This document shows positions 23,727 to 46,125 of a stretch of DNA of 64,000 nt, piece by piece; within the stretch, counting starts at the first letter, position 1, and each line of letters begins with the position of its first letter. The position numbers and the translations under genes were made by a program. This DNA comes from a bacterium (lineage in GTDB: Bacteria > Oederibacteriota > PGYV01). The stretch lies in contig JAKQNO010000138.1 in the NCBI GenBank assembly GCA_029565735.1, positions 18,195 through 82,194 of the forward strand, given 5' to 3'. The notes under the pieces were generated by a model, which was not told where the DNA came from, searched no databases, and worked only from the letters and a program-made list of their open reading frames with translations.

Positions 23727-24770
23727 TCACTGCCTGTCAAATGCAAAATCATCCTTTTCAAACAATTCCACGCACGCGTCAACCGCCGGCGCGTAATACA
23801 GCTTCCCTTTGTTCACCTTAATCTCGTTTAAGGCAACCTCCGTGCCAAGCGCGGCTCTGTAGGGCCTTATTGAAGCCATAGCTTCCATAACATCCGCAAC
23901 ACTTATAATCTTTGCCTCTGTCATTATTTCATCTTCCGTTAATCCCAGCGGATATCCGCTTCCGTCCATCCTTTCGTGGTGCTGAAAGACTATCTTATCA
24001 ACAGGGAAAGGAAATTTAATGGTTTTTAAAATGTCATACCCCACCTGCGGATGCGTTTTTATTATGCTGAATTCTATCGTTGAAAGTTTGCCCGGCTTGG
24101 AAAGAATTTCTGCCGGCACATATATTTTGCCTATATCGTGAATTATGCCGCCGATATAAATGGCATTAATTGTCTCGTCAGGAAGCCCAAGTTTTACGGC
24201 AATCGCCTTGGCAAGCTGAGCCACCCTTCTTTGATGGCCCGCCGTATACGGGTCGCGCGTTTCCACAATTTTTTCCATGGCGAATATTATTCCGTCAGAT
24301 ATTGTTTTTAACTTTTCATAGCTCTCTTCAAGTTCAAGGCGCCCTTTCCTGCGGTCTATTATAAACCTGTTCCTTTCTATCGCGTAAAAAATAGACCTTA
24401 CAAGCACGCCTGCTTCTGTTTCGCCTTTTATAAGGTAATCCTGAGCGCCTTCTTTAACGGCCCTTAAGGAAAATTCTTTATCTTCCATTCCGGTAAGTAT
24501 CACAACGGCAATGTCCGGAAATCTTTCCCTGAATTTGATCAGCGTATCCATGCCATTGCTGTCAGGCAGGTTAAGGTCTAAAAGCACCACGTCAAAATTT
24601 TCCTGTCCGGCAAAAGCCATGGCTTCGCTTAAATAACTTGCGTTTTTAACGTTAAAAATATTCCCAGCTTCATCCTGCAGCGATATCTGCAGATATTTGG
24701 CAAGGCTCTTTTCATCCTCTACCAGAAGCAGTTTTATGTTTGATTCGCTGTGAAAAGAAAATTTTGCCAT
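23727..24770 (-). CDS. Response regulator with HD-GYP phosphohydrolase output domain (c-di-GMP phosphodiesterase type)
   Basis: REC domain (LLVEDE...DVVLLDLNLPD). HD-GYP motifs HQRRV, HDIGK and GYP (DGSGYPLG). Confidence 0.8.
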   Translation of the reverse strand: MAKFSFHSESNIKLLLVEDEKSLAKYLQISLQDEAGNIFNVKNASYLSEAMAFAGQENFDVVLLDLNLPDSNGMDTLIKFRERFPDIAVVILTGMEDKEFSLRAVKEGAQDYLIKGETEAGVLVRSIFYAIERNRFIIDRRKGRLELEESYEKLKTISDGIIFAMEKIVETRDPYTAGHQRRVAQLAKAIAVKLGLPDETINAIYIGGIIHDIGKIYVPAEILSKPGKLSTIEFSIIKTHPQVGYDILKTIKFPFPVDKIVFQHHERMDGSGYPLGLTEDEIMTEAKIISVADVMEAMASIRPYRAALGTEVALNEIKVNKGKLYYAPAVDACVELFEKDDFAFDRQ

Positions 24771-37871: not shown

Positions 37872-38690
37872 ATGAATAAATCAAAGATACGCGTCTGCAC
37901 GGCAAGTTTCACTGACCCCACCTGGAACGGGGTTATTTACCCTGACGGTTTAAAACCCCGGCAGGAGCTTTCCTACTATCAAAAAGAACTTGGTTTTAAT
38001 TGCGTTGAAATTGACGTTACCTTTTACGCCCTTATTTCCCCCAAATCCGCCGCAGGAATGGAAAGAAAAACATCCGATGATTTTGAATTTATCGTAAAGG
38101 CTTTTAAGGGCATAACACATGACCCGTTTATCCAAAAAAACGCCGGCAGTAAAACCGCTTTAAACGAGGCAGAAAAATATATCGAAGAGTTCCTTTACAT
38201 CATAAAACCCTTTAAAGATAAGGATAAACTGGGATGCGTATTGCTTCAGTTCCCCGGTTTTTTTCTGCCTTCAGATGAAAATTACAGATATTTAGAGTTA
38301 TGCAGGTCCGCGTTCAGGGATACACCCATGTCCGTGGAATTCAGAAATGAAAAATGGGCCACGGAAGAAACTTATGATTTTCTGAAAAAACACAGCCTTG
38401 GCTGCTGCAACGTTGACGAGCCGCACGTTAATCACATGATGCCTTTTTTAAACCGTCTTACATCCAATATTGCTTTTTTCAGATTTCACGGCAGAAACAA
38501 AAACTGGCAGTATTTACCAAAAGAAGAAAAAGTGGAGTATGACTATACTAACGAAGAACTTGAATTCTTTGCCAAAGAAATCCTAAAATCCGCCGCTTTA
38601 GCTGATAAGGTTTACGTTGTCTTCAACAACAACTACGCCGGCTTATCCGTAAAAAACGCGGTAAAATTAAAACAGATACTAAATTTATAA
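37872..38690 (+). CDS. DUF72 family protein (UPF0759)
   Basis: N-terminal IRVCTASFTDPTWNGVIYP and overall ~270-aa DUF72 pattern. Confidence 0.65.
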   Translation: MNKSKIRVCTASFTDPTWNGVIYPDGLKPRQELSYYQKELGFNCVEIDVTFYALISPKSAAGMERKTSDDFEFIVKAFKGITHDPFIQKNAGSKTALNEAEKYIEEFLYIIKPFKDKDKLGCVLLQFPGFFLPSDENYRYLELCRSAFRDTPMSVEFRNEKWATEETYDFLKKHSLGCCNVDEPHVNHMMPFLNRLTSNIAFFRFHGRNKNWQYLPKEEKVEYDYTNEELEFFAKEILKSAALADKVYVVFNNNYAGLSVKNAVKLKQILNL

Positions 38691-40637
38691 TTAAACCCGT
38701 ACCCCGTCCACCCTCTTTAACTCCCCTTCGCATCCTCCGGCCGCGTTATCCGCGGATTTTACAAACTCAAAAACATTATGCATAAGGATTGTGTCGCTTT
38801 CCATGCCTGTTATTTCAGCAATATGCGTTACCTTTCTTTTTCCGTCTTTAAACCTTGCCTGCTGGACCACTATATTAATCGCGCTTTTTATCTGTTCCCT
38901 TATCGCCCTTACAGGAAGGTCCATCCCCGCCATTAACACCATAACCTCCACTCTTGACAGCGCATCGCGCGGCGAATTGGCGTGAACCGTTGTCATTGAA
39001 CCGTCATGGCCGGTGTTCATTGCCTGAAGCATATCAAGCGCTTCCCCGCCGCGGCACTCGCCAACCACTATCCTGTCCGGCCTCATCCTTAATGAATTTT
39101 TTACCAGTTCCCTTATTGTAATTTCGCCCTTTCCTTCAATATTTGACGGCCTTGATTCAAGCCTTACAACGTGTTCCTGCGGAAGCCTAAGCTCCGCGGA
39201 ATCTTCAATTGTCACTATTCTTTCATCAGCCGGTATAAAAGATGATATGACATTTAAAAGCGTTGTCTTGCCCGAACCGGTGCCTCCGGATATAAGTATA
39301 TTTTTTCTGCGCCTGACACATTCTTCAAGATAATCCGCAGCCTGCCGGGTAAGGCTTTTGTAATCAACAAGGTCGCTTACGGTAAGTTTATTTTTGGAAA
39401 ATTTCCTTATTGTAATTACAGGCCCGTCCAGAGCAAGCGGAGGTATAACCGCGTTTACCCTTGACCCATCGGCAAGCCTTGCGTCAACATATGGCCTGCT
39501 TTCATCAATACGCCTGCCTATAGGCGTGACAATCCTTTCTATCGCCCTTATCACCGCCTGACCGTCGGTGAATTCCCTGCCTGAATCCTTTATTTTTCCG
39601 CCTTTTTCAATGAATATTTTATCGTGCCCGTTTACCATTATTTCGCTGATATCATCATCCCTTAGAAGTTCCTGTATAGCGCCCAATCCGGTTACTTCAT
39701 CAAATATTTCACCGGCAATTTTATCCCTGTCGTTTAAAATGTGTATCATACCTGTTTCGTCTATGACGGATTTTATTTTTTGCCTTATATCAGTGTTAAA
39801 TTTTTCTTTGGCAGCCGGATCAATCATCATCTGGCTTTCAATCTTTCTCATATCAAACGCTTCATATAATTTTCTGCTTATTTCTTTTTTCAGTTCCGCC
39901 CTGCCATTTTTAAAATTATCCGGCGTTTCTTTTTTTGTATCAATATTATCATCCGCCCAGGTAATAAAGGATTTTTTTTCGCTGTTTGACGCTGTTTTTT
40001 TGACAATATCGCCCATAATGCTTTTAAATTCATGAAAAAACAGCCCTTTTGCCTTTCCGCTTATAAGTAGCCTGCCGTTTTTCTGAAAATCTGAAACTTC
40101 TTTATCATAAGGGAGAATGCCCGAGACATTAAAAGGTCCAAAAATTTCTTTCAAATCCTCTTTTTTCAGAAACCCGCCGTCTATCTTATTTACCAGAATA
40201 TCAATTCGCTGTACCGGGAAACCGTCCTGCCGCAGTTTTTCCGCAGTGTAAATAGCGTGTTTTAAATCCGGTTGGGATAAAACAGCCGGTATTATTATCC
40301 TGTCAGAAACTTCTATAACAGATTTTTCCGGCAGGCTGTCCGAATCAATTATGACAGCGTCAAAACTCCCTGCTTTAAAAATGTCCTTAAGGCCTGCAGT
40401 GTCTCCGCATTCAAGATAAACATTCGCTGATTTATGTTTAAAAATAAGAGGTTTATCAGTTTTTTCAAACACTCCGGATGTGCCGTATACCGCCTCCCCG
40501 TCATTAACATGCTTCCGGCACTCAAAAATTAAGACCTTAGCCGCTTTATCCGCCGCAAAATATTCTGCCAGATTAAAAGCAAACGTGGTTTTTCCGGAGC
40601 CGCTTCTGGAGTTAGCGAATGTAATTATCTTATTCAT
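38691..40637 (-). CDS. Tad/Flp pilus secretion ATPase TadA/CpaF fused to an N-terminal TadZ/CpaE-like (MinD/ParA-type) domain
   Basis: N-terminal ~230 aa with deviant Walker A SRSGSGKTT and AVIIDSD. C-terminal VirB11/CpaF module with Walker A ISGGTGSGKTTLLN, Asp/His boxes and VVGECRGGEA. Confidence 0.75.
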   Translation of the reverse strand: MNKIITFANSRSGSGKTTFAFNLAEYFAADKAAKVLIFECRKHVNDGEAVYGTSGVFEKTDKPLIFKHKSANVYLECGDTAGLKDIFKAGSFDAVIIDSDSLPEKSVIEVSDRIIIPAVLSQPDLKHAIYTAEKLRQDGFPVQRIDILVNKIDGGFLKKEDLKEIFGPFNVSGILPYDKEVSDFQKNGRLLISGKAKGLFFHEFKSIMGDIVKKTASNSEKKSFITWADDNIDTKKETPDNFKNGRAELKKEISRKLYEAFDMRKIESQMMIDPAAKEKFNTDIRQKIKSVIDETGMIHILNDRDKIAGEIFDEVTGLGAIQELLRDDDISEIMVNGHDKIFIEKGGKIKDSGREFTDGQAVIRAIERIVTPIGRRIDESRPYVDARLADGSRVNAVIPPLALDGPVITIRKFSKNKLTVSDLVDYKSLTRQAADYLEECVRRRKNILISGGTGSGKTTLLNVISSFIPADERIVTIEDSAELRLPQEHVVRLESRPSNIEGKGEITIRELVKNSLRMRPDRIVVGECRGGEALDMLQAMNTGHDGSMTTVHANSPRDALSRVEVMVLMAGMDLPVRAIREQIKSAINIVVQQARFKDGKRKVTHIAEITGMESDTILMHNVFEFVKSADNAAGGCEGELKRVDGVRV

Positions 40638-41719
40638 TATACTTCACCGGTGTCTATAACTTTTGTGGTCACAAATATTACAAGTTCCGTCCTGCGGGTT
40701 TCTTTATGCGTGTTTTTAAAAAGTTCGCCAAGCACAGGTATGCCTGAAAGCACGGGAACGCCGCCTGATACCATTACATCTTCATTCTGTATTAATCCCG
40801 CAATCACTATTGTATCTTCCGGCGTTACCGAAATGGTTGTTCCCGCCCATCTTGTTTTTAGCGCCGGCATTACTCCGGAACCCAGGCTTATCGCATTGGC
40901 GTAATCAAGATTGCTTACTTCAGCCTTAAGTTCCGCCTTAATATGCCCGTTTTTCTTTAATTCCGGCTGTATTTCAAGCGATATTCCGTATTCTTTCCAC
41001 TCTATATTTGCGTTGCCGTCTTTATCAACAAGCGCGACCGGCATTTCTCCTCCGGATAAAAACTTGGCTTTATTTCCGCTTGAAGTAAGAATTTTGGGCT
41101 TTGCCAATATTTTGCCGTAATTATTTTTCACCATAAAATCAAGCAGTAAATTAATATTGCCCCTTGAAAACTTTCCAAAGGCCAAAAGCGGCGCGCCGCT
41201 TTCCGCCACATTCAGCGGCCCTAACAGGCCCGCGCCGGCGCCTTCTTTATCTTCTGCGGCTCCGCCAATCAGCGTGGGCCAATCCAGCCCTATATCAGAA
41301 GTGTCGTTCCCGCTTATTTCCATAACCTGAACGGATACTTCTATCATCTGTTCCGATGATGCCGGCTTTTTTACGTTTACAAGAATTGTTTCCAGGCCGT
41401 TTTTTCCCTGTATATTTACCGCGCTTACGCCTTCTTTTTTCCCTTCTATAATAATCTCTTTTTTGGAAATTATAATGGCTGAAGCTATCTCTTCCCTTAT
41501 AACCTCCACTTTTTCCGCTTCATCAGTTTTAATAACTTTTGAACCGCCAACTTTTACGGTTATTGACCTTCCATCCGCGAAAATGGTTACTGCTTGAAAA
41601 ATTAAAAATATGCAAAAACAAAGCAACACCTTTAAAACTTTACATTCTTGGTTTAATTTCATTCTCAGATACTTCCTTTCTGCCGGGAGACCCCATAATA
41701 TATTCTTTTTTAAGTTCAT
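40637..41719 (-). CDS. Tad pilus secretin CpaC/RcpA family (short form)
   Basis: Secretin C-terminal domain GGVPVLSGIPVLGELFKNTHKETRRTELVIFVTTKVI. Preceded by a BON-like N domain. Confidence 0.75.
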   Translation of the reverse strand: MNLKKNILWGLPAERKYLRMKLNQECKVLKVLLCFCIFLIFQAVTIFADGRSITVKVGGSKVIKTDEAEKVEVIREEIASAIIISKKEIIIEGKKEGVSAVNIQGKNGLETILVNVKKPASSEQMIEVSVQVMEISGNDTSDIGLDWPTLIGGAAEDKEGAGAGLLGPLNVAESGAPLLAFGKFSRGNINLLLDFMVKNNYGKILAKPKILTSSGNKAKFLSGGEMPVALVDKDGNANIEWKEYGISLEIQPELKKNGHIKAELKAEVSNLDYANAISLGSGVMPALKTRWAGTTISVTPEDTIVIAGLIQNEDVMVSGGVPVLSGIPVLGELFKNTHKETRRTELVIFVTTKVIDTGEV

Positions 41720-42458
41720 CTTCGCTTTTCTCGTTGGATTTTATCTGTTTCATAAGGTCATTAAACGACGCAAGCCTGACACTCTCCTTAATCCTGTCGC
41801 CAAGAGGCCTTAACGCAAGGTTAATTCTGCCTTTATCTTTCGCGAATGTCAGAATTTCAGCCTCTTCCGGGGTCAACGCCAGTGTTATGGAATTGTAATC
41901 ACCCTGTGTTTCATTGCCTTTAAAATTCGCCCCCACTCCTATCACCTTTACAGACTGCAGTATAGTGGCGGTTGCCGTATATAACCTTTGATTCTCGGCG
42001 GTTTCAAATGTCAGCAGTATGTCAACGTTATCGCCGGGTTTAATCATGAATCCCACGCCGGATTCTTCATCAACAGAAACAGTCATTGCCCTCAGCCCGG
42101 TGGGAATTGACATGTTAAGTTCGGTTCCTCTGTCGCTTATTTTATTCATTAAAATGGGCTCGCCTTTGATAAACGGCACTATTGTAAGTTTTGATTCAGC
42201 CTGCTTAATGTCAGTTATATGGGCTTTGGTCACAAATTTGGCCGGCATTTCAATGAATTCAACGCTGTTCTTATCTATTTCGGAATTCGCCGAAATATAA
42301 CCTGCCGCGGCAAGGACTTTAACAGGGTTCATCCCTGCCATTAAATTATTCTCTTTCCAGGTCAGAAATCCGTATCCGCTTCCGGCGGCAATAAGCCCGC
42401 AGGCAAGCGACAGTATCAAAAGCCTGTTTTCTTTACTTATTTTTTCTGTAAATTTCAA
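41640..42458 (-). CDS. Flp pilus assembly protein CpaB/RcpC
   Basis: N-terminal TM anchor. SAF-like/CpaB organisation. Position upstream of the secretin. Confidence 0.55.
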   Translation of the reverse strand: MKFTEKISKENRLLILSLACGLIAAGSGYGFLTWKENNLMAGMNPVKVLAAAGYISANSEIDKNSVEFIEMPAKFVTKAHITDIKQAESKLTIVPFIKGEPILMNKISDRGTELNMSIPTGLRAMTVSVDEESGVGFMIKPGDNVDILLTFETAENQRLYTATATILQSVKVIGVGANFKGNETQGDYNSITLALTPEEAEILTFAKDKGRINLALRPLGDRIKESVRLASFNDLMKQIKSNEKSEDELKKEYIMGSPGRKEVSENEIKPRM

Positions 42459-42476
42459 TTTTCCCTCCTGTTATTT

Positions 42477-43223
42477 TCATCCGATTACACAGACGGTATA
42501 ATTTCCGCCTTCGCCGTTATAATTTACCGTTATAGAAACAGACCGGTTTTTCTTCTGTGCCAGAAAGTATCCGTTATCAGCACCCAAATAGGCCGCGCCG
42601 ATAACCCATTTATCTTTTTCAAGACGCGCCCTGTAATCGCTTAATACGGTTCCCGCGCTGTCCGCTGCCAAAGTATATGTGTTTGCAAAATGAATTGTTT
42701 GATTGCCCGACAAAAGTTCAACGCTTTCCGTAATCTTAACACCTTTGGGATGGCTGATTTCATCGTCAAAAAAAACAGCTTTATCCGTTCTGTATGCCTG
42801 CGGCATAGTGACAATCACTATCAGGCTTCCTTTTTGCGCCTGTGCGATTCCGGCCGCCGTAAGGCATCCATTTTTTTCGGTTACATATATATCCATATCT
42901 TCCGCGGCTGTATCCGGAAGTAACGCCTTAAAAACAGCCGCATAACCGCCCGCATTGCCTTTCATCAAAACAGGGACGCTGTTTTTTTCGGCAAATACTT
43001 TTGCCGCCGCTTCAGGAGCAAGCGCCGAGGCAAACCTTTCAATTTTTACAAAACTGCCGTTAATTCTTGCACTGATTTCGCCGCTGCATTTAAAATCCGC
43101 CATTCTGACGCCGGGTTCTTCCAATTCTTCGGACTTATCATAAATAAATGAAAAAAGGCCTGCCGGAATCAGGATAACTATCAGGCTAATGTACAGGCGC
43201 TTCATCGGATACCTCCATTCCAT
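42477..43223 (-). CDS. Hypothetical secreted protein embedded in the tad locus
   Basis: N-terminal hydrophobic anchor. No recognisable domain. Confidence 0.35.
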   Translation of the reverse strand: MEWRYPMKRLYISLIVILIPAGLFSFIYDKSEELEEPGVRMADFKCSGEISARINGSFVKIERFASALAPEAAAKVFAEKNSVPVLMKGNAGGYAAVFKALLPDTAAEDMDIYVTEKNGCLTAAGIAQAQKGSLIVIVTMPQAYRTDKAVFFDDEISHPKGVKITESVELLSGNQTIHFANTYTLAADSAGTVLSDYRARLEKDKWVIGAAYLGADNGYFLAQKKNRSVSITVNYNGEGGNYTVCVIG

Positions 43224-43698
43224 ATTCCCTTACTTTTTCCGCCTGTTTTTCTGTCAGCACAAATTTTAAAGGCCCGCCTTTCGCCGAATAGATGCTTGTC
43301 TTTAATTTTATGCCCTCTTTTCCCGTAATTTTTTCAAAGACGGGCGAAGTTTTGCATATGTATTCCAGATTAATTGTGACGCCGGTAAAATTTTCCATCA
43401 AATCGCCCAGAATCCCTTTTTGTTCCGGTTTTTCGCCTTCACCCGTTGAAACCGCAAGCAAATCCGGATTTAACCCTTCAGCGGCAGCATACTCTTTGGC
43501 AAAACTTTCAAGCATTTCCGGCTTCTCTGATTCTGATGTTATAAATCTCATCAGCTCGCGTTCAACCATCGCCAGCTTAACGCGGTCAAGGGATATGGAT
43601 GCAAATTGAATTATTCCAAACAGCATCAGAATCAGTAAAGGCAGGACTATAATAAACTCCGCCATTGCCTGGCCTTTGTATCGGTTTATGGCAGTCAA
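43186..43698 (-). CDS. TadE-like pseudopilin
   Basis: N-terminal TadE-like domain AEFIIVLPLLILMLFGIIQF. Confidence 0.55.
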   Translation of the reverse strand: MTAINRYKGQAMAEFIIVLPLLILMLFGIIQFASISLDRVKLAMVERELMRFITSESEKPEMLESFAKEYAAAEGLNPDLLAVSTGEGEKPEQKGILGDLMENFTGVTINLEYICKTSPVFEKITGKEGIKLKTSIYSAKGGPLKFVLTEKQAEKVREYGMEVSDEAPVH

Positions 43699-44711
43699 TT
43701 TATTCCCGCCCTTTCTTTTAAAATTTTTCCGACAGAATCAAGTTCCCCGCCTGATCCGGGAATCTGTTTTTGTATATCTTCAGCGGCATCCATTAAACCG
43801 GACAGGCCGAAATCCGGTATTTTAACGGGCACAAGAGACGCCTGATATGAAGCGCCGTTTATGTCCAGAATATCCATGGTTCCTCCGGCTGCGCCGGCCA
43901 TTGACAGCGCGACAAAATACTTTTTTTTGCCGCCATTTTTAAAGAACCTGTTATTTAATAACAAACCGGACTTTTCCCTGCAGGCGATGACCAGAACAGT
44001 GTGTTCGGCGGATTTTTCTTTTACATCAAGCGGAATAAGGCCCTTTTCTTCTTTCAATATCCTTGAAGGGCCGCCGTATCCTTTTTTGGTTATATGCCCT
44101 CCCTTTCCATGGGAAAGGTTTTCATCCCATCTGACGTCATCCTTATCCACATATATCTTCTTGCCGTCGCTCTTTCTTTTATATGAATACTTTCCGGGAA
44201 CATCCTTATCCGGAACAAGAAGTTCTGACGCATATCTGCGTTCAAGGTTAAACGAAGGCAGATAATTATTATCTTCGTTATTAACATTAAAAACAGGTAT
44301 GCACGCAGAGCCGTTATTGATGCCGTTTCTGATAACCGCGGCAGACAGCAAAAGCGGCGCCGGTTTAATGGGCAATTTATCAAAATCACCGGTTCCGGCA
44401 AAAGCATCCTGCACCTTCTGAACCGCTTCAACCGTCTTCAAAGCGCCTTTTAAACCCGCTATTTCACATATTGTTGCCGCCAATGCCGAGACCGCAAGTA
44501 TCTTATTGCTTATAGAGACAATATTAAGGCTTCTTGCGTACCAAAGCCCGGCTTCAACAGCGGCAGAATCAGCGGCATTCTGCGCTTTAATTTTTTCAAA
44601 GACCACATTGCCCGTTTCAACCGTTAGAATAACGGCCATAAATAAAGCCACCACAGCCAGTATGGCCGGAACAAGAATCTGGCCTTTATTTCCTGTTATA
44701 TTTCTTTTCAT
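43695..44711 (-). CDS. TadG-like pilus assembly protein
   Basis: N-terminal GQILVPAILAVVALFMAVILTVETG...AQNAADSAAVEAGLW pattern typical of TadG. Confidence 0.5.
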   Translation of the reverse strand: MKRNITGNKGQILVPAILAVVALFMAVILTVETGNVVFEKIKAQNAADSAAVEAGLWYARSLNIVSISNKILAVSALAATICEIAGLKGALKTVEAVQKVQDAFAGTGDFDKLPIKPAPLLLSAAVIRNGINNGSACIPVFNVNNEDNNYLPSFNLERRYASELLVPDKDVPGKYSYKRKSDGKKIYVDKDDVRWDENLSHGKGGHITKKGYGGPSRILKEEKGLIPLDVKEKSAEHTVLVIACREKSGLLLNNRFFKNGGKKKYFVALSMAGAAGGTMDILDINGASYQASLVPVKIPDFGLSGLMDAAEDIQKQIPGSGGELDSVGKILKERAGIN

Positions 44712-45244
44712 TCCAGCCTCATCACTGCGGAGGCTTTTATTGTATAAAAAGGATAACCAAGATAAGCGGCGGAGTAATTTACGGGTTTTTTCTGAAACAT
44801 CCCGAATATATTTTTTACAACCGGCACTTTTAACGGCATGTTGTATGAAACTATAACACTTAAAAAAGCGCTGTTAACTGAATTTTGAAATTGCGTTTCT
44901 GTTATAACGGCCTGTTGGTTAAACCCGGCAAATTTTATAATTTTAACCGCAGCCATGCTTTTAAAGTTTGAAGCAATCATATCGGCAGAATCACCGGAAT
45001 AGTTATTTGCCGCGTCAAACATATAACCCGCAAAGGCATTTGTTTTTTCGGCGTATAACGGCCTTTCATCCGCCTGCCTTACAACCATGGAACGTACGGT
45101 TATATAAGCCGCGTATTTTACCATCGCGTAATTAATAAATATAAGCGTAAGCTGCGCCATACCCAGAGTTAACAGTAAAAAAAACGGCAATATGGCGCAA
45201 AATTCAACAACGCTTTGCCCTTTGTTTTCCGTAAAATTTTTCAT
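44708..45244 (-). CDS. TadE-like pseudopilin
   Basis: GQSVVEFCAILPFFLLLTLGMAQL TadE-like N-terminus. Confidence 0.55.
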   Translation of the reverse strand: MKNFTENKGQSVVEFCAILPFFLLLTLGMAQLTLIFINYAMVKYAAYITVRSMVVRQADERPLYAEKTNAFAGYMFDAANNYSGDSADMIASNFKSMAAVKIIKFAGFNQQAVITETQFQNSVNSAFLSVIVSYNMPLKVPVVKNIFGMFQKKPVNYSAAYLGYPFYTIKASAVMRLE

Positions 45245-45251
45245 TAGTTAT

Positions 45252-45285
45252 AAAAAAATAAGGGTGTTTTTTCAAAAACACCCTT
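45252..45285 (-). terminator. Intrinsic terminator/attenuator immediately after the flp pilin gene
   Basis: Stem AAGGGTGTTTTT/AAAAACACCCTT followed by ATTTTTTTAT on the minus strand. Confidence 0.5.
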
Positions 45286-45298
45286 ATGTCTTTCCTCC

Positions 45299-45511
45299 TT
45301 AAATTCCGCCTTTTGAATTGTTCCCTTTGTTTATACCTGAATCCACTGATTTTTCAATTGTTTCAGCGGAATCATTAAAACCTTTTTTTACTTTCTGGCC
45401 AAAAAACTTTACACCGCCTATCACAAACAGCGCTATCAGGGCGATAATAAGTATGTATTCTGTCATCCCCTGCCCTTTTTTTGACTTAATAAGATTTTTC
45501 AATTTGTTCAC
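45299..45511 (-). CDS. flp: Flp/Fap family type IVb pilin (prepilin)
   Basis: Leader MNKLKNLIKSKKGQG with G/XXXXEY processing motif (G|QGMTEY), followed by a hydrophobic helix. GTG start with GGGAGG upstream. Confidence 0.7.
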   Translation of the reverse strand: MNKLKNLIKSKKGQGMTEYILIIALIALFVIGGVKFFGQKVKKGFNDSAETIEKSVDSGINKGNNSKGGI

Positions 45512-45521
45512 CCCCTCCCGA

Positions 45522-45686
45522 TTATGGAATTATTGGAATTAAAAAGATATTGATTACATGTTCAAGAAAACCGTTAATTAATTGCTGTAAAAAACCGCTT
45601 AAGCCGGCGCATGCCAATATTACTACGCCCGCGGCAAGCAGATATTCGGTCAATGCCTGGCCTTTATTATTTGAAATTAAGCGCAA
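45522..45686 (-). CDS. Second Flp-family pilin. Start reassigned to TTG (short form of the ORF 45522..45866)
   Basis: Contains G|QALTEYLLAAGVVILACAGL (G/XXXXEY plus hydrophobic helix). GGAG sits 9 nt upstream of the TTG. The N-terminal 60 codons of the long ORF lie directly downstream of a transcription terminator. Confidence 0.45.
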   Translation of the reverse strand: MRLISNNKGQALTEYLLAAGVVILACAGLSGFLQQLINGFLEHVINIFLIPIIP

Positions 45687-45762
45687 AATATCACGCTCCG
45701 ACCAGAAATAAAGAGATATGTGAAAAGATATAAAATGGTGTAGGATAAAATAATTTGTAATT

Positions 45763-45802
45763 CCGGTTTTACCGCGTGTTTTGCATTGCACGGTAAAACC
45801 GG
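45763..45802. promoter_or_regulatory. 12-bp perfect inverted repeat CCGGTTTTACCG-N16-CGGTAAAACCGG with a nested TGCATTGCA palindrome, in the flp upstream region
   Basis: Read directly from the sequence. Candidate operator or RNA stem-loop between the upstream terminator and the flp genes. Confidence 0.4.
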
Positions 45803-45877
45803 AACGCTGTAAAAAAATAAGCTCATAAAACCCCTCTATGTCTTCTGAGACTCTTTTGCATTTCATTTTAAAAAAAA

Positions 45878-45910
45878 CCGCAGGCGGTGTTACCCGCCTG
45901 CCGTATTTTC
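45878..45910 (-). terminator. Rho-independent terminator separating the gluconokinase-like gene from the tad locus
   Basis: Stem GCAGGCGG/CCGCCTGC (8 bp) followed by T9 on the minus strand. Confidence 0.5.
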
Positions 45911-46125
45911 CGGCACCTCGTTAATGCCGAAAAACCCCTCTACTGCCCCTGACTATAAAAACAAATTAAAACTTAAAATAACAAAGGGATTTAAACAGAA
46001 AGTTAACATTGACGTTTTAGAATATCCCGTTAGCTCGTTTGTCCCCTATGTTAAAAACAAAATTATGATATAAAAATATGCGGTTATTGTCAAGACTTTA
46101 TTTTTATGGATAAGGCTGCTTGGGA

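What the first reader, a model, noticed from the sequence alone, without database searches (positions are those of the whole stretch)
38691..45910. Atypical Tad/Flp pilus locus: fused TadZ-like::TadA ATPase, two pilins, attenuator after flp, palindromic operator. No tadB, tadC or tadV
Order on the minus strand: terminator, IR element, flp2 (TTG start), flp1, strong hairpin terminator, tadE, tadG, tadE, unknown 248-aa protein, cpaB, short secretin, 648-aa ATPase. In the ATPase, a MinD/ParA-like CpaE/TadZ domain (deviant Walker A SRSGSGKTT) is fused in front of the CpaF motor. The platform genes tadB/tadC and the prepilin peptidase tadV are absent. The operon ends abutting a convergent DUF72 gene, with stop codons adjacent. 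Either the platform is encoded elsewhere, or this is a reduced Tad variant. The terminator between flp and tadE is a classic pilin:machinery stoichiometry attenuator.
Basis: partly seen in the sequence, partly recalled or inferred. Interest (0 to 1): 0.6.

Follow-up and report, generated by a model that had tools for sequence, protein, structure and literature searches.

The report
Tad pilus operon lacking platform genes
This is a real, conserved Tad/Flp adhesion-pilus operon of uncultured Goldbacteria whose motor is fused to its positioning protein. It lacks the membrane platform and pilin-processing genes that every such machine needs, so these are most likely encoded elsewhere in the genome.

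Summary
On the minus strand, 45686 to 38691, lie flp2, flp1, a strong hairpin terminator, tadE, tadG, tadE, a 242-aa unknown, cpaB, a short secretin and a 648-aa ATPase. The ATPase carries a MinD/ParA-fold, TadZ-like domain in front of a CpaF motor.

No T2SSF platform gene (tadB/tadC) and no A24 prepilin peptidase was found in about 80 kb of the 84-kb span examined (the 64-kb window plus 10 kb on each side).

The same nine-gene module recurs in 18 species genomes (Goldbacteria, FCPU426, related MAGs). It had no platform gene within 10 kb in 0 of 7 contexts, against 36 of 44 ordinary CpaF loci.

The fusion itself is not unique. Elusimicrobiota and Deltaproteobacteria have it with tadB/tadC nearby.

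The five prepilin-like proteins share a KG|Q cleavage motif. The motor keeps the residues that contact the platform in Caulobacter CpaF. The module therefore most likely depends on genes elsewhere, but I could not test this genome-wide.

The head "terminator" belongs to a conserved promoter plus about 190-nt structured leader with no Rfam match. The "operator" behaves like an RNA hairpin.

Verdict: a new variant of a known kind, of moderate interest.

The parts
46065..46093 (-). Sigma-70-like promoter, TTGACA-17-TATCAT. It lies downstream of the kinase gene stop (46126).
   Evidence: It matches 11 of 12 consensus positions. Both hexamers and the spacing are conserved in L008 and L117.
45868..46058 (-). 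Conserved structured leader RNA of about 190 nt. It ends in an invariant intrinsic terminator (stem 45880-45901, followed by a T8 run). It is a candidate cis-regulatory attenuator or small RNA of unknown class.
   Evidence: Minimum free energy is -54.5 kcal/mol, z = -3.5. It is conserved in blocks across three species; 9 predicted pairs show compensatory changes, mainly in the hairpin just before the terminator. No Rfam family matched at gathering score, and none matched convincingly at E<=10.
45806..45856 (-). A 51-nt block that is almost invariant across three species. Its function is unknown.
   Evidence: Alignments. It is more conserved than the neighbouring coding sequence.
45760..45805 (-). 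Inverted repeat or hairpin (17-bp stem, about 12-nt loop) in the presumed 5' untranslated region of flp2.
   Evidence: Read from the sequence. In RNAalifold, three stem pairs change on both sides and none breaks; the loop sequence varies.
45522..45686 (-). flp2: a 54-aa Flp-like prepilin with a TTG start (MRLISNNKG|QALTEY...). The mature part is almost wholly hydrophobic.
   Evidence: The TTG aligns with ATG in L008 and L117. Genes of 53-54 aa are called at the same place in relatives. tblastn finds homologues upstream of flp1 in L094, L099, L107, L112 and L039.
45299..45502 (-). flp1: a 67-aa Flp pilin with a TTG start (a GTG at 45511 would give 70 aa), MKNLIKSKKG|QGMTEY...
   Evidence: PF04964, E 3.6e-6, 27 bits, below the cutoff. 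Gene calls of 67 aa in L004 and L008. N-terminus and upstream GGAGG read.
45251..45287 (-). Intrinsic terminator or attenuator between flp1 and tadE (13-bp stem, GAAA loop, T7 run). The tadE ATG follows 14 nt after the stem, with no Shine-Dalgarno sequence.
   Evidence: Hairpins followed by U-tracts, with different sequence, occupy the same place in L008, L117 and L094.
44708..45244 (-). tadE-like pseudopilin (178 aa), N-terminus MKNFTENKG|QSVVEF.
   Evidence: PF07811, E 8.5e-8. N-terminus read.
43695..44711 (-). tadG-like protein (338 aa), N-terminus MKRNITGNKG|QILVP.
   Evidence: PF13400, E 7e-8. N-terminus read.
43186..43698 (-). Second tadE-like pseudopilin (170 aa, TTG start), N-terminus ...NRYKG|QAMAEF.
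   Evidence: PF07811, E 1.8e-8. N-terminus read.
42477..43205 (-). Clade-specific accessory protein (242 aa). It has one N-terminal membrane helix and two tandem alpha/beta domains of the BamC/DcrB/PA1624 type. It is probably periplasmic and is not a platform.
41640..42458 (-). cpaB/rcpC (272 aa, TTG start). It belongs to a sharply delimited clade-specific subfamily.
   Evidence: TIGR03177, 149 bits. In the homologue search, bit scores fall from 234 to 109 after 43 clusters.
40637..41662 (-). Short secretin (341 aa with signal peptide; PF13629 N-domain plus secretin domain). Its stop overlaps the ATPase start (ATGA).
   Evidence: PF00263, E 4e-40. Gene calls of 330-341 aa.
38691..40637 (-). 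TadZ(ATPase domain)::TadA/CpaF fusion ATPase (648 aa). N-domain aa 1-215 (nt 39993-40637), linker aa 216-284, motor aa 285-648.
   Evidence: The N-domain model (pLDDT 86) has a MinD/FleN/ParA fold, TM about 0.7. BLASTP against the standalone TadZ of L042 gives E 7e-8. The motor aligns to C. crescentus CpaF (8RKD), E 1e-114.

Best explanation
This is a lineage-specific form of the Tad/Flp (type IVc) pilus gene cluster, found in Goldbacteria, candidate division FCPU426 and related uncultured bacteria.

The nine-gene module encodes:
- the filament parts: two Flp pilins, two TadE-like proteins and one TadG-like protein;
- the envelope conduit: CpaB, a short secretin and a periplasmic two-domain accessory protein;
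- the cytoplasmic motor: a CpaF/TadA hexameric ATPase whose variable N-terminal region has been replaced by the ATPase half of TadZ. This ties the positioning/scaffold protein to the motor one-to-one.

The module is not self-sufficient (inferred). The prepilin peptidase and the TadB/TadC-type (T2SSF) platform must be supplied from elsewhere in the genome. They could be dedicated genes at another locus or could be shared with another type IV filament system.

Inferred expression: a sigma-70 promoter drives a structured leader that ends in its own terminator. Transcripts that read through carry a conserved hairpin and then flp2 and flp1. A strong terminator after flp1 lets only a fraction of transcripts continue into the machinery genes. 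Several of these overlap, so translation may be coupled. The outcome would be much pilin and little machinery.
For: Tad identity of each gene.

The module is conserved:
- The same order (flp2-flp1-tadE-tadG-tadE-unknown-cpaB-secretin-ATPase) is seen in three close species at one chromosomal site and in a different genomic context in L009. All or part of it appears in the 8-kb loci from 18 species genomes found with a clade-specific cpaB pattern.
- In the 1.7-Mb contig the module is split into two loci about 100 kb apart, and neither has T2SSF. The secretin-ATPase pair of the 908-kb contig also stands alone, without T2SSF.

Local absence is real and unusual: 0 of 7 clade contexts have T2SSF within 10 kb, against 36 of 44 control CpaF loci, Fisher p = 5.6e-5.

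Evidence for dependence on genes elsewhere:
- Five proteins share a class-III signal motif, [NKY]KG|Q, followed in four of the five by E at +5. They therefore need a prepilin peptidase that the module lacks.
- No module protein has more than one or two membrane segments.
- The CpaF residues shown in Caulobacter to be essential, and modelled there at the CpaG/CpaH interface (D208; E331, G332, G334; PMC11300603), correspond to D378 and E501/G502/G504. These are invariant in all 23 fused ATPases aligned.
- Pilin, peptidase, ATPase and platform are the four universal core parts of type IV filaments (PMC10191384). Peptidases are known to be exchanged between systems (PMC6668835).

Regulation: promoter; leader conservation and covariation; post-flp1 hairpins conserved in structure but not in sequence.
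Against: - No platform or peptidase gene of this organism was actually found. The species is not in the genome collection I could scan.
- In two long-read MAG contigs (1.7 Mb and 908 kb), none of the three module loci fetched (about 22 kb each) has T2SSF.
- The clade's ATPases lack the last 25 or so residues of CpaF. The meaning of this is unknown.
- The transcript structure is inferred from sequence only.
Confidence: 0.68

Rival explanations
1. The machine truly lacks a TadB/TadC-type platform. In these bacteria the Tad apparatus would work without a T2SSF protein. Either an unrecognised membrane protein takes that role, or the fused TadZ-like domain and the bitopic TadG/CpaB proteins couple the motor to the pilins.
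For: - T2SSF is absent from every clade locus examined, in at least four unrelated genomic neighbourhoods.
- The clade has its own sharply separate CpaB subfamily, a very divergent N-domain (only 20 representative clusters at E<=1e-3 among 1.84 billion) and a truncated motor C-terminus. These could mark a rewired machine.
- Other Tad-like loci with N-terminally extended ATPases also lack T2SSF within 10 kb (L039, L044).
Against: - No polytopic membrane protein is in the module.
- Processed pilins have no cytoplasmic part, so a membrane hub is considered indispensable (PMC10191384).
- The platform-contact residues of the motor are invariant.
- The peptidase is missing too, so help from genes elsewhere is needed in any case.
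- 8 of 44 ordinary CpaF loci also lack a nearby T2SSF, so local absence alone is weak evidence.
Confidence: 0.08
2. The module is a decaying or silent remnant of a Tad locus that lost tadB/tadC/tadV. It no longer builds a pilus.
For: - Core genes are missing.
- In the FCPU426 MAG, a gene with transposase-like HTH domains lies between two tblastn fragments of tadE, and the module is split.
Against: - All nine ORFs are intact.
- Gene order is kept in the 8-kb loci from 18 species genomes, at 40-80% protein identity.
- Catalytic and platform-contact motifs of the motor are invariant.
- Regulatory hairpins show compensatory changes.
This pattern indicates long purifying selection.
Confidence: 0.04
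3. On the regulatory elements only. The inverted repeat at 45760-45805 is a DNA operator for a dimeric repressor or activator. The upstream promoter-to-terminator unit is then an independent small RNA gene, and flp2 has its own promoter downstream.
For: - The repeat is a near-perfect palindrome close to the pilin genes.
- Symmetric changes in both half-sites would also preserve an operator.
- The 51-nt invariant block just upstream could hold a promoter or binding site.
Against: - A 17-bp arm with a 12-nt variable spacer is long for an operator.
- The arm sequence itself changes between species while pairing is kept (three double changes, none broken).
- No conserved -35/-10 pair was found between the leader terminator and flp2.
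Confidence: 0.25

Closest known systems
Tad/Flp (type IVc) pilus systems, such as the Aggregatibacter actinomycetemcomitans flp-tad locus and the Caulobacter crescentus pilA-cpa locus
   Same: - Flp-type pilins with G|xxxxEY processing motifs.
- TadE and TadG pseudopilins.
- CpaB/RcpC.
- A CpaC/RcpA-type secretin with the PF13629 N-domain.
- A CpaF/TadA motor (E 1e-114 to CpaF, PDB 8RKD).
- A TadZ-like P-loop domain.
- The pilin gene comes first and is followed by a terminator.
   Different: - No tadB/tadC and no tadV/cpaA in the locus or in the roughly 80 kb of the surrounding 84-kb span that was examined.
- TadZ is reduced to its ATPase domain and fused to the motor.
- The secretin is short (341 aa).
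- No TadD/RcpB/CpaD was recognised.
- There is a clade-specific periplasmic protein (AF_1845-like).
- The motor lacks the C-terminal 25 or so residues.
TadZ::TadA fusion ATPases of Elusimicrobiota, Firestonebacteria, Deltaproteobacteria and Myxococcota (P0059, P0090, P0096, P0093)
   Same: They have the same domain order (ParA/MinD-like domain, linker, CpaF motor) and are 41-43% identical overall. They are clearly homologous along the whole length.
   Different: - The two loci I inspected keep two T2SSF genes, either next to the ATPase (L012) or about 7 kb away (L011).
- Their Walker A is the TadZ-type KGGxG(Q/S/K)T.
- They retain the CpaF C-terminal tail.
Standalone TadZ/CpaE (for example PDB 3FKQ from Eubacterium rectale; the L042 and L078 genes here)
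   Same: The N-domain aligns over its full length with the ATPase domain of a TadZ encoded directly upstream of cpaF (25% identity, E 7e-8). It has a MinD/FleN fold.
   Different: - The receiver-like N-terminal domain that TadZ is thought to use for polar localisation is absent.
- The signature lysine of the deviant Walker A is Arg here, and the P-loop lysine is Arg in several clade members.
Riboswitch-controlled pilin genes, such as the c-di-GMP-II riboswitch upstream of Clostridioides difficile pilA1 (from my own knowledge; not tested here)
   Same: A structured leader ending in an intrinsic terminator sits directly upstream of the major pilin genes.
   Different: There is no match to c-di-GMP-I/II or to any other Rfam family. 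The ligand or partner is unknown, and only three sequences are available.

Membership tests
Tad/Flp (type IVc) pilus system | Flp-family major pilin with a short leader and the G|xxxxEY motif | tested here: met
   Flp1 carries KKG|QGMTEY and Flp2 carries NKG|QALTEY. PF04964 gives E 3.6e-6 but only 27 bits, below the cutoff of 32.2.
Tad/Flp (type IVc) pilus system | TadA/CpaF-subfamily secretion ATPase | tested here: met
   PF00437, E 9e-61. TIGR03819, 343 bits, just under the cutoff of 373. E 1e-114 to C. crescentus CpaF structures.
Tad/Flp (type IVc) pilus system | Two single-domain T2SSF platform proteins (TadB and TadC), normally next to tadA | tested here: not met
   There is no PF00482 and no tblastn hit in the window, in the fetched flank loci (about 80 kb of the 84-kb span examined) or in any clade locus. 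The same queries hit 36 of 44 control loci. Presence elsewhere in the genome could not be tested.
Tad/Flp (type IVc) pilus system | Dedicated prepilin peptidase TadV/CpaA (Peptidase_A24) | tested here: not met
   No PF01478 was found among the window's ORFs of at least 150 aa or the called genes of the flank loci. A genome-wide test was not possible. Peptidases can be shared between systems (PMC6668835).
Tad/Flp (type IVc) pilus system | TadZ/CpaE ParA/MinD-like protein | tested here: met
   It is present as a fused N-terminal domain: CbiA E 4.8e-12, MinD/FleN fold, homology to a standalone TadZ. The receiver-like domain is missing.
Tad/Flp (type IVc) pilus system | RcpA/CpaC secretin and RcpC/CpaB | tested here: met
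   PF00263 plus PF13629; TIGR03177 at 149 bits against a cutoff of 71.
Tad/Flp (type IVc) pilus system | TadE/TadF/TadG pseudopilins | tested here: met
   PF07811 twice and PF13400 once. All have KG|Q leaders.
Tad/Flp (type IVc) pilus system | All components encoded in a single locus | tested here: not met
   Platform and peptidase are not in the locus. In the FCPU426 long-read MAG the remaining genes are themselves split into two loci, and the other long-read MAG shows the same pattern.
TadZ/CpaE family | N-terminal atypical receiver domain plus C-terminal atypical ParA-like ATPase domain | tested here: not met
   Only the ATPase domain is present (aa 1-215). The nearest non-clade relatives do have an N-terminal region of about 135 aa before the ParA domain.
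Known riboswitch or leader families (Rfam 15) | A covariance-model match at the gathering score | tested here: not met
   Only a tRNA passes in the whole window. In the leader region the best hits are spurious (U12, 26.5 bits against a gathering score of 53).

The most novel reading that the evidence does not exclude
Goldbacteria, FCPU426 and their relatives run a Tad-type pilus machine that has no TadB/TadC-type platform and no dedicated peptidase. One of the four supposedly universal core parts of type IV filaments would be replaced by something unrecognised. The fused TadZ-like domain could be part of the new coupling.
Probability: 0.07. Interest if true: 0.85.

Novelty: new variant of a known kind. 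Interest (0 to 1): 0.45.

Why it matters
The platform protein and the prepilin peptidase are two of the four parts found in every type IV filament machine. Tad systems are described as single-locus islands.

This is a whole clade of uncultured bacteria that keeps a nine-gene Tad module under selection, but without those two parts nearby. There are two possible readings:
- Tad machines can be modular, with the membrane core kept at a separate locus or shared.
- Much less likely, the core can be replaced.

The natural TadZ-TadA fusion also bears on a mechanistic question. It implies a direct one-to-one association of the positioning ATPase with the motor, at the site of the variable NTD0 region. 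That region modulates extension versus retraction in Caulobacter.

The conserved leader with its own terminator is a candidate for a new regulatory RNA that controls pilin expression.

Tried and rejected
1. A metagenome scan with an alignment of the clade's ATPases. The automatic patterns (DMLQAMN, DRI[VI]VGEC) were generic to all CpaF proteins and returned 80 ordinary loci. It failed for its purpose, and I reused the loci as a control set.
2. A genome scan with a three-sequence CpaB alignment. It gave no confirmed hits. This also showed that the window's species and its two closest relatives are not in the genome collection.
3. My first hand-written DNA pattern had the wrong spacing and matched nothing. 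I rebuilt it by script.
4. Finding TadB/TadC of the same genome. I rejected this: only 120 hits are listed, and a T2SSF from this clade would not rank that high. It could not be done with the remaining caps.
5. A single-sequence PDB search with the N-domain gave only weak Soj/ParA hits (E about 0.02). The predicted structure was needed to settle the fold.
6. BLASTP of the N-domain against the L078 TadZ was not significant. Against the L042 TadZ it was.
7. A recurring 'TAGAGGGG' motif in the leader region. A window search for one form of it (ACATAGRGGGR, one mismatch) found a single site against 2.4 expected by chance, so I dropped it.
8. The leader is not detectable in more distant clade members (nhmmer and blastn). 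Covariation therefore rests on three species only.
9. The accessory proteins of the related loci L009, L039 and L044 had no significant Pfam hits (one weak, sub-cutoff Toluene_X match). Most have no more than one hydrophobic segment, and none looks like a polytopic membrane protein.
10. Literature. No paper in the library links Goldbacteria with pili. None of the listed hits from my searches appeared, by title or abstract, to describe a TadZ-TadA or CpaE-CpaF natural fusion; I did not read them for that point.

Full report

Yes. Between 45866 and 38691 the minus strand carries a tight run of ORFs.
- a 648-aa ATPase with PF01656 CbiA/ParA at aa 5-189 (E 4.8e-12) and PF00437 T2SSE at aa 317-593 (E 9e-61);
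- a secretin (PF00263 and PF13629);
- CpaB (TIGR03177, 149 bits against a cutoff of 71);
- two TadE proteins and one Tad/TadG protein;
- an Flp pilin (PF04964 below its cutoff, but with the motif KG|QGMTEY);
- a 248-aa ORF with no family in my Pfam copy.

The convergent DUF72 gene ends at 38690, directly against the ATPase stop codon. The hairpin after flp1 (13 bp plus T7) and the terminator at the head of the locus were both found by the pattern scan. The inverted repeat is visible in the sequence.

The proposed TTG start of flp2 (45686) aligns exactly with an ATG in two related species. Small Flp-like genes sit upstream of flp1 in several relatives. flp2 is therefore a real gene.

**2. Are tadB, tadC and tadV really missing?**

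Locally, yes.
- I read the translations of the window's ORFs of at least 150 aa in its first 35 kb. Pfam tables for the called genes came with the contig look-ups.
- I extended the view 10 kb beyond each end of the window on the 100.5-kb JGI contig. One side is the ribosomal protein/rpoBC region. The other holds ClpB, a peptidase and a RuBisCO-like gene. Together these views cover about 80 kb of the 84-kb span; roughly 2.2 kb on each side, between the window ends and the fetched loci, was not read.
- I scanned the remaining doubtful ORFs.
- No PF00482 and no PF01478 was found.
- tblastn with four T2SSF proteins taken from related loci finds nothing in the window or in any locus of the clade. 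The same queries detect T2SSF in 36 of 44 unrelated CpaF loci that have at least 3 kb downstream.

**3. What organism, and how general is this?**

The ATPase is found identically on 17 contigs from anaerobic-digester metagenomes and on two NCBI MAGs. Its named relatives are Candidatus Goldbacteria/Goldiibacteriota.

A clade of about 45 protein clusters shares 47-70% identity and the same length. The CpaB of this clade is a sharply separate subfamily: bit scores fall from 234 to 109 after 43 clusters.

I wrote a DNA pattern from residues invariant in this CpaB. It matched only clade loci among the 98 loci I then held. In the species-representative genome collection it matched 18 genomes: Goldbacteria, candidate division FCPU426, several MAGs labelled Spirochaetia, and one labelled Methylomirabilis.

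The held loci show all or part of the order flp2-flp1-tadE-tadG-tadE-unknown-cpaB-secretin-ATPase.

In two long-read MAGs the module appears cut between cpaB and the secretin:
- In the FCPU426 MAG the two halves lie about 100 kb apart on a 1.7-Mb contig, and neither half has T2SSF.
- In the other MAG the secretin-ATPase pair stands alone on the 908-kb contig, without T2SSF. An 8-kb locus from the same contig shows part of the pilin half.

In seven species-level contexts with enough downstream sequence, covering at least four unrelated neighbourhoods, none has T2SSF within 10 kb. The control loci give 36 of 44 (Fisher p = 5.6e-5). The local absence is therefore a conserved trait of the clade and not an accident of this window. 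However, 8 of 44 controls also lack a nearby T2SSF, so local absence alone does not prove absence from the genome.

**4. The fusion**

The N-terminal 215 residues give a confident model (pLDDT 86) with a MinD/FleN/ParA fold (TM about 0.7). They align over their full length with the ATPase domain of a standalone TadZ encoded directly upstream of cpaF in locus L042 (25% identity, E 7e-8).

The nearest non-clade relatives of the domain have the CpaE/TadZ layout: about 135 aa, then a ParA domain.

The fused domain is therefore the ATPase half of TadZ without the receiver-like half. It is also highly divergent. Only 20 representative clusters out of 1.84 billion reach E<=1e-3. The signature lysine is Arg, and the P-loop lysine is Arg in several members.

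The fusion as such is not new to the databases. The same architecture occurs in Elusimicrobiota, Firestonebacteria, Deltaproteobacteria and Myxococcota. In the two such loci I inspected there are two T2SSF genes, adjacent in one and about 7 kb away in the other. None of the papers my searches listed appeared, by title or abstract, to discuss it.

In Caulobacter CpaF, the region that the fusion occupies is the variable, disordered NTD0, which influences retraction (PMC11300603).

**5. Does the motor still look platform-dependent?**

The motor aligns with C. crescentus CpaF at E 1e-114. In that protein D208 (Loop 8) and E331/G332/S333/G334 (Central Loop) are essential in vivo and are modelled at the CpaG/CpaH interface. 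By the alignment these correspond to D378 and E501/G502/K503/G504. D378, E501, G502 and G504 are invariant in all 23 fused ATPases aligned.

No protein of the module is polytopic.

Five proteins carry the same [NKY]KG|Q leader, so a peptidase from elsewhere is needed in any case.

I therefore think the platform and the peptidase are encoded elsewhere, either as dedicated genes or shared. I give this about two chances in three, and a platform-less machine well under one in ten.

This is inference. The species is not in the scannable genome collection, and I exhausted the collection scans, protein searches and contig look-ups.

**6. The unknown protein**

The 242/248-aa protein has one N-terminal membrane helix. 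Its homologues occur only in the clade, and some carry PF27226 (AF_1845) in the precomputed tables.

It is probably a periplasmic, membrane-anchored accessory protein. It is not a platform.

**7. Regulation**

- A near-consensus promoter (TTGACA-17-TATCAT, 46093-46065) lies after that gene's stop.
- Promoter, terminator and several internal blocks are conserved in three species while the stretches between them vary.
- The 191-nt transcript folds well (z = -3.5).
- RNAalifold finds 9 pairs with compensatory changes, concentrated in the hairpin just before the terminator. The loop of that hairpin (AUUAACGAG) is conserved.
- No Rfam family matches.

This is either a transcription-attenuating leader (riboswitch-like, or bound by a protein or an RNA) for the pilin genes, or a small RNA gene. 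I could not detect it in more distant members of the clade.

Downstream come a 51-nt nearly invariant block and then the inverted repeat. The repeat forms a 17-bp stem with three double changes, no broken pair and a variable loop. That pattern fits a transcribed hairpin better than a protein operator, but an operator is not excluded.

The terminator after flp1 is matched by different hairpins followed by U-tracts at the same place in L008, L117 and L094. The tadE ATG follows 14 nt later without a Shine-Dalgarno sequence.

**8. Comparison and verdict**

By gene content this is a Tad/Flp (type IVc) system. It fails three features that are usual for the family:
- tadB/tadC next to tadA;
- a dedicated peptidase;
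- single-locus organisation.

It also has a TadZ reduced to one domain and fused to the motor.

I class it as a new variant of a known kind. It is of moderate interest as it stands. It would be of high interest only if whole-genome searches found no T2SSF protein.

Noticed in passing
window 45868-46093 (minus strand): A near-consensus promoter is followed by a conserved structured leader of about 190 nt that ends in an invariant terminator, directly upstream of the pilin genes. There is no Rfam match. Compensatory changes are seen across three species. It is a candidate new cis-regulatory RNA or small RNA.
   Followed up: partly
window 45806-45856 (minus strand): A 51-nt non-coding block is almost identical in three species whose proteins are only about 70% identical. 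It is more conserved than the flanking genes. Its function is unknown.
   Followed up: partly
proteins P0004, P0005, P0006: Proteins of 950-960 aa score 790-820 bits against the 648-aa ATPase and carry T2SSE plus several AAA-type Pfam hits but no CbiA. They may be tandem double-motor CpaF fusions.
   Followed up: no
L094 5864-7437 (FCPU426 MAG, 1.7-Mb contig): The tadE homologue appears as two tblastn fragments on either side of a 321-aa gene with HTH_23/HTH_38 (transposase-like) domains. In this MAG the module is also split from its secretin-ATPase pair, which lies about 100 kb away. This may be an insertion that inactivates tadE.
   Followed up: partly
L007 12104-12454: In the FCPU426 MAG a PilZ-domain gene lies about 170 nt downstream of the fused ATPase. 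This hints at c-di-GMP control of this machine.
   Followed up: no
window 23727-24770 (minus strand): A response regulator with an HD-GYP-type domain (PF13487 HD_5, E 6e-37; motif HHERMDGSGYP). It is likely a c-di-GMP phosphodiesterase and lies 14 kb from the pilus operon.
   Followed up: no
L039 1405-11074 and L044 3263-8041: Two other metagenomic Tad-like loci have an N-terminally extended ATPase and no T2SSF within 10 kb downstream. L039 has pilins, cpaB and a secretin, with a 743-aa ATPase whose first 400 aa have no Pfam hit. L044 has cpaB, a secretin and a 736-aa ParA-fused ATPase. The 'no adjacent platform' pattern may therefore be wider than the Goldbacteria clade.
   Followed up: partly
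window 45244-45258 (minus strand): The tadE start codon lies 14 nt after the flp1 terminator stem, inside the U-tract region, with no recognisable Shine-Dalgarno sequence. This would further lower machinery expression.
   Followed up: no
C-terminus of the ATPase, window 38691-38720 (alignment A2): All ATPases of the clade end about 25 residues earlier than C. crescentus CpaF and than the fused ATPases of other phyla. They lack the conserved tail (…G.IP.F…G…F).
   Followed up: partly
L004 (GCA_029549485.1, JAKPLI010000156.1): This MAG contig carries an identical ATPase but different flanks: an unknown 426-aa gene upstream of the kinase, and an unknown 303-aa gene in place of the thioredoxin genes. 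This is either a strain-level rearrangement or an assembly chimera.
   Followed up: no
L095 20120-21343 (about 8 kb beyond window position 1): A RuBisCO large-subunit-like gene (PF00016) in this anaerobic-digester bacterium. It is probably a form III/IV enzyme.
   Followed up: no
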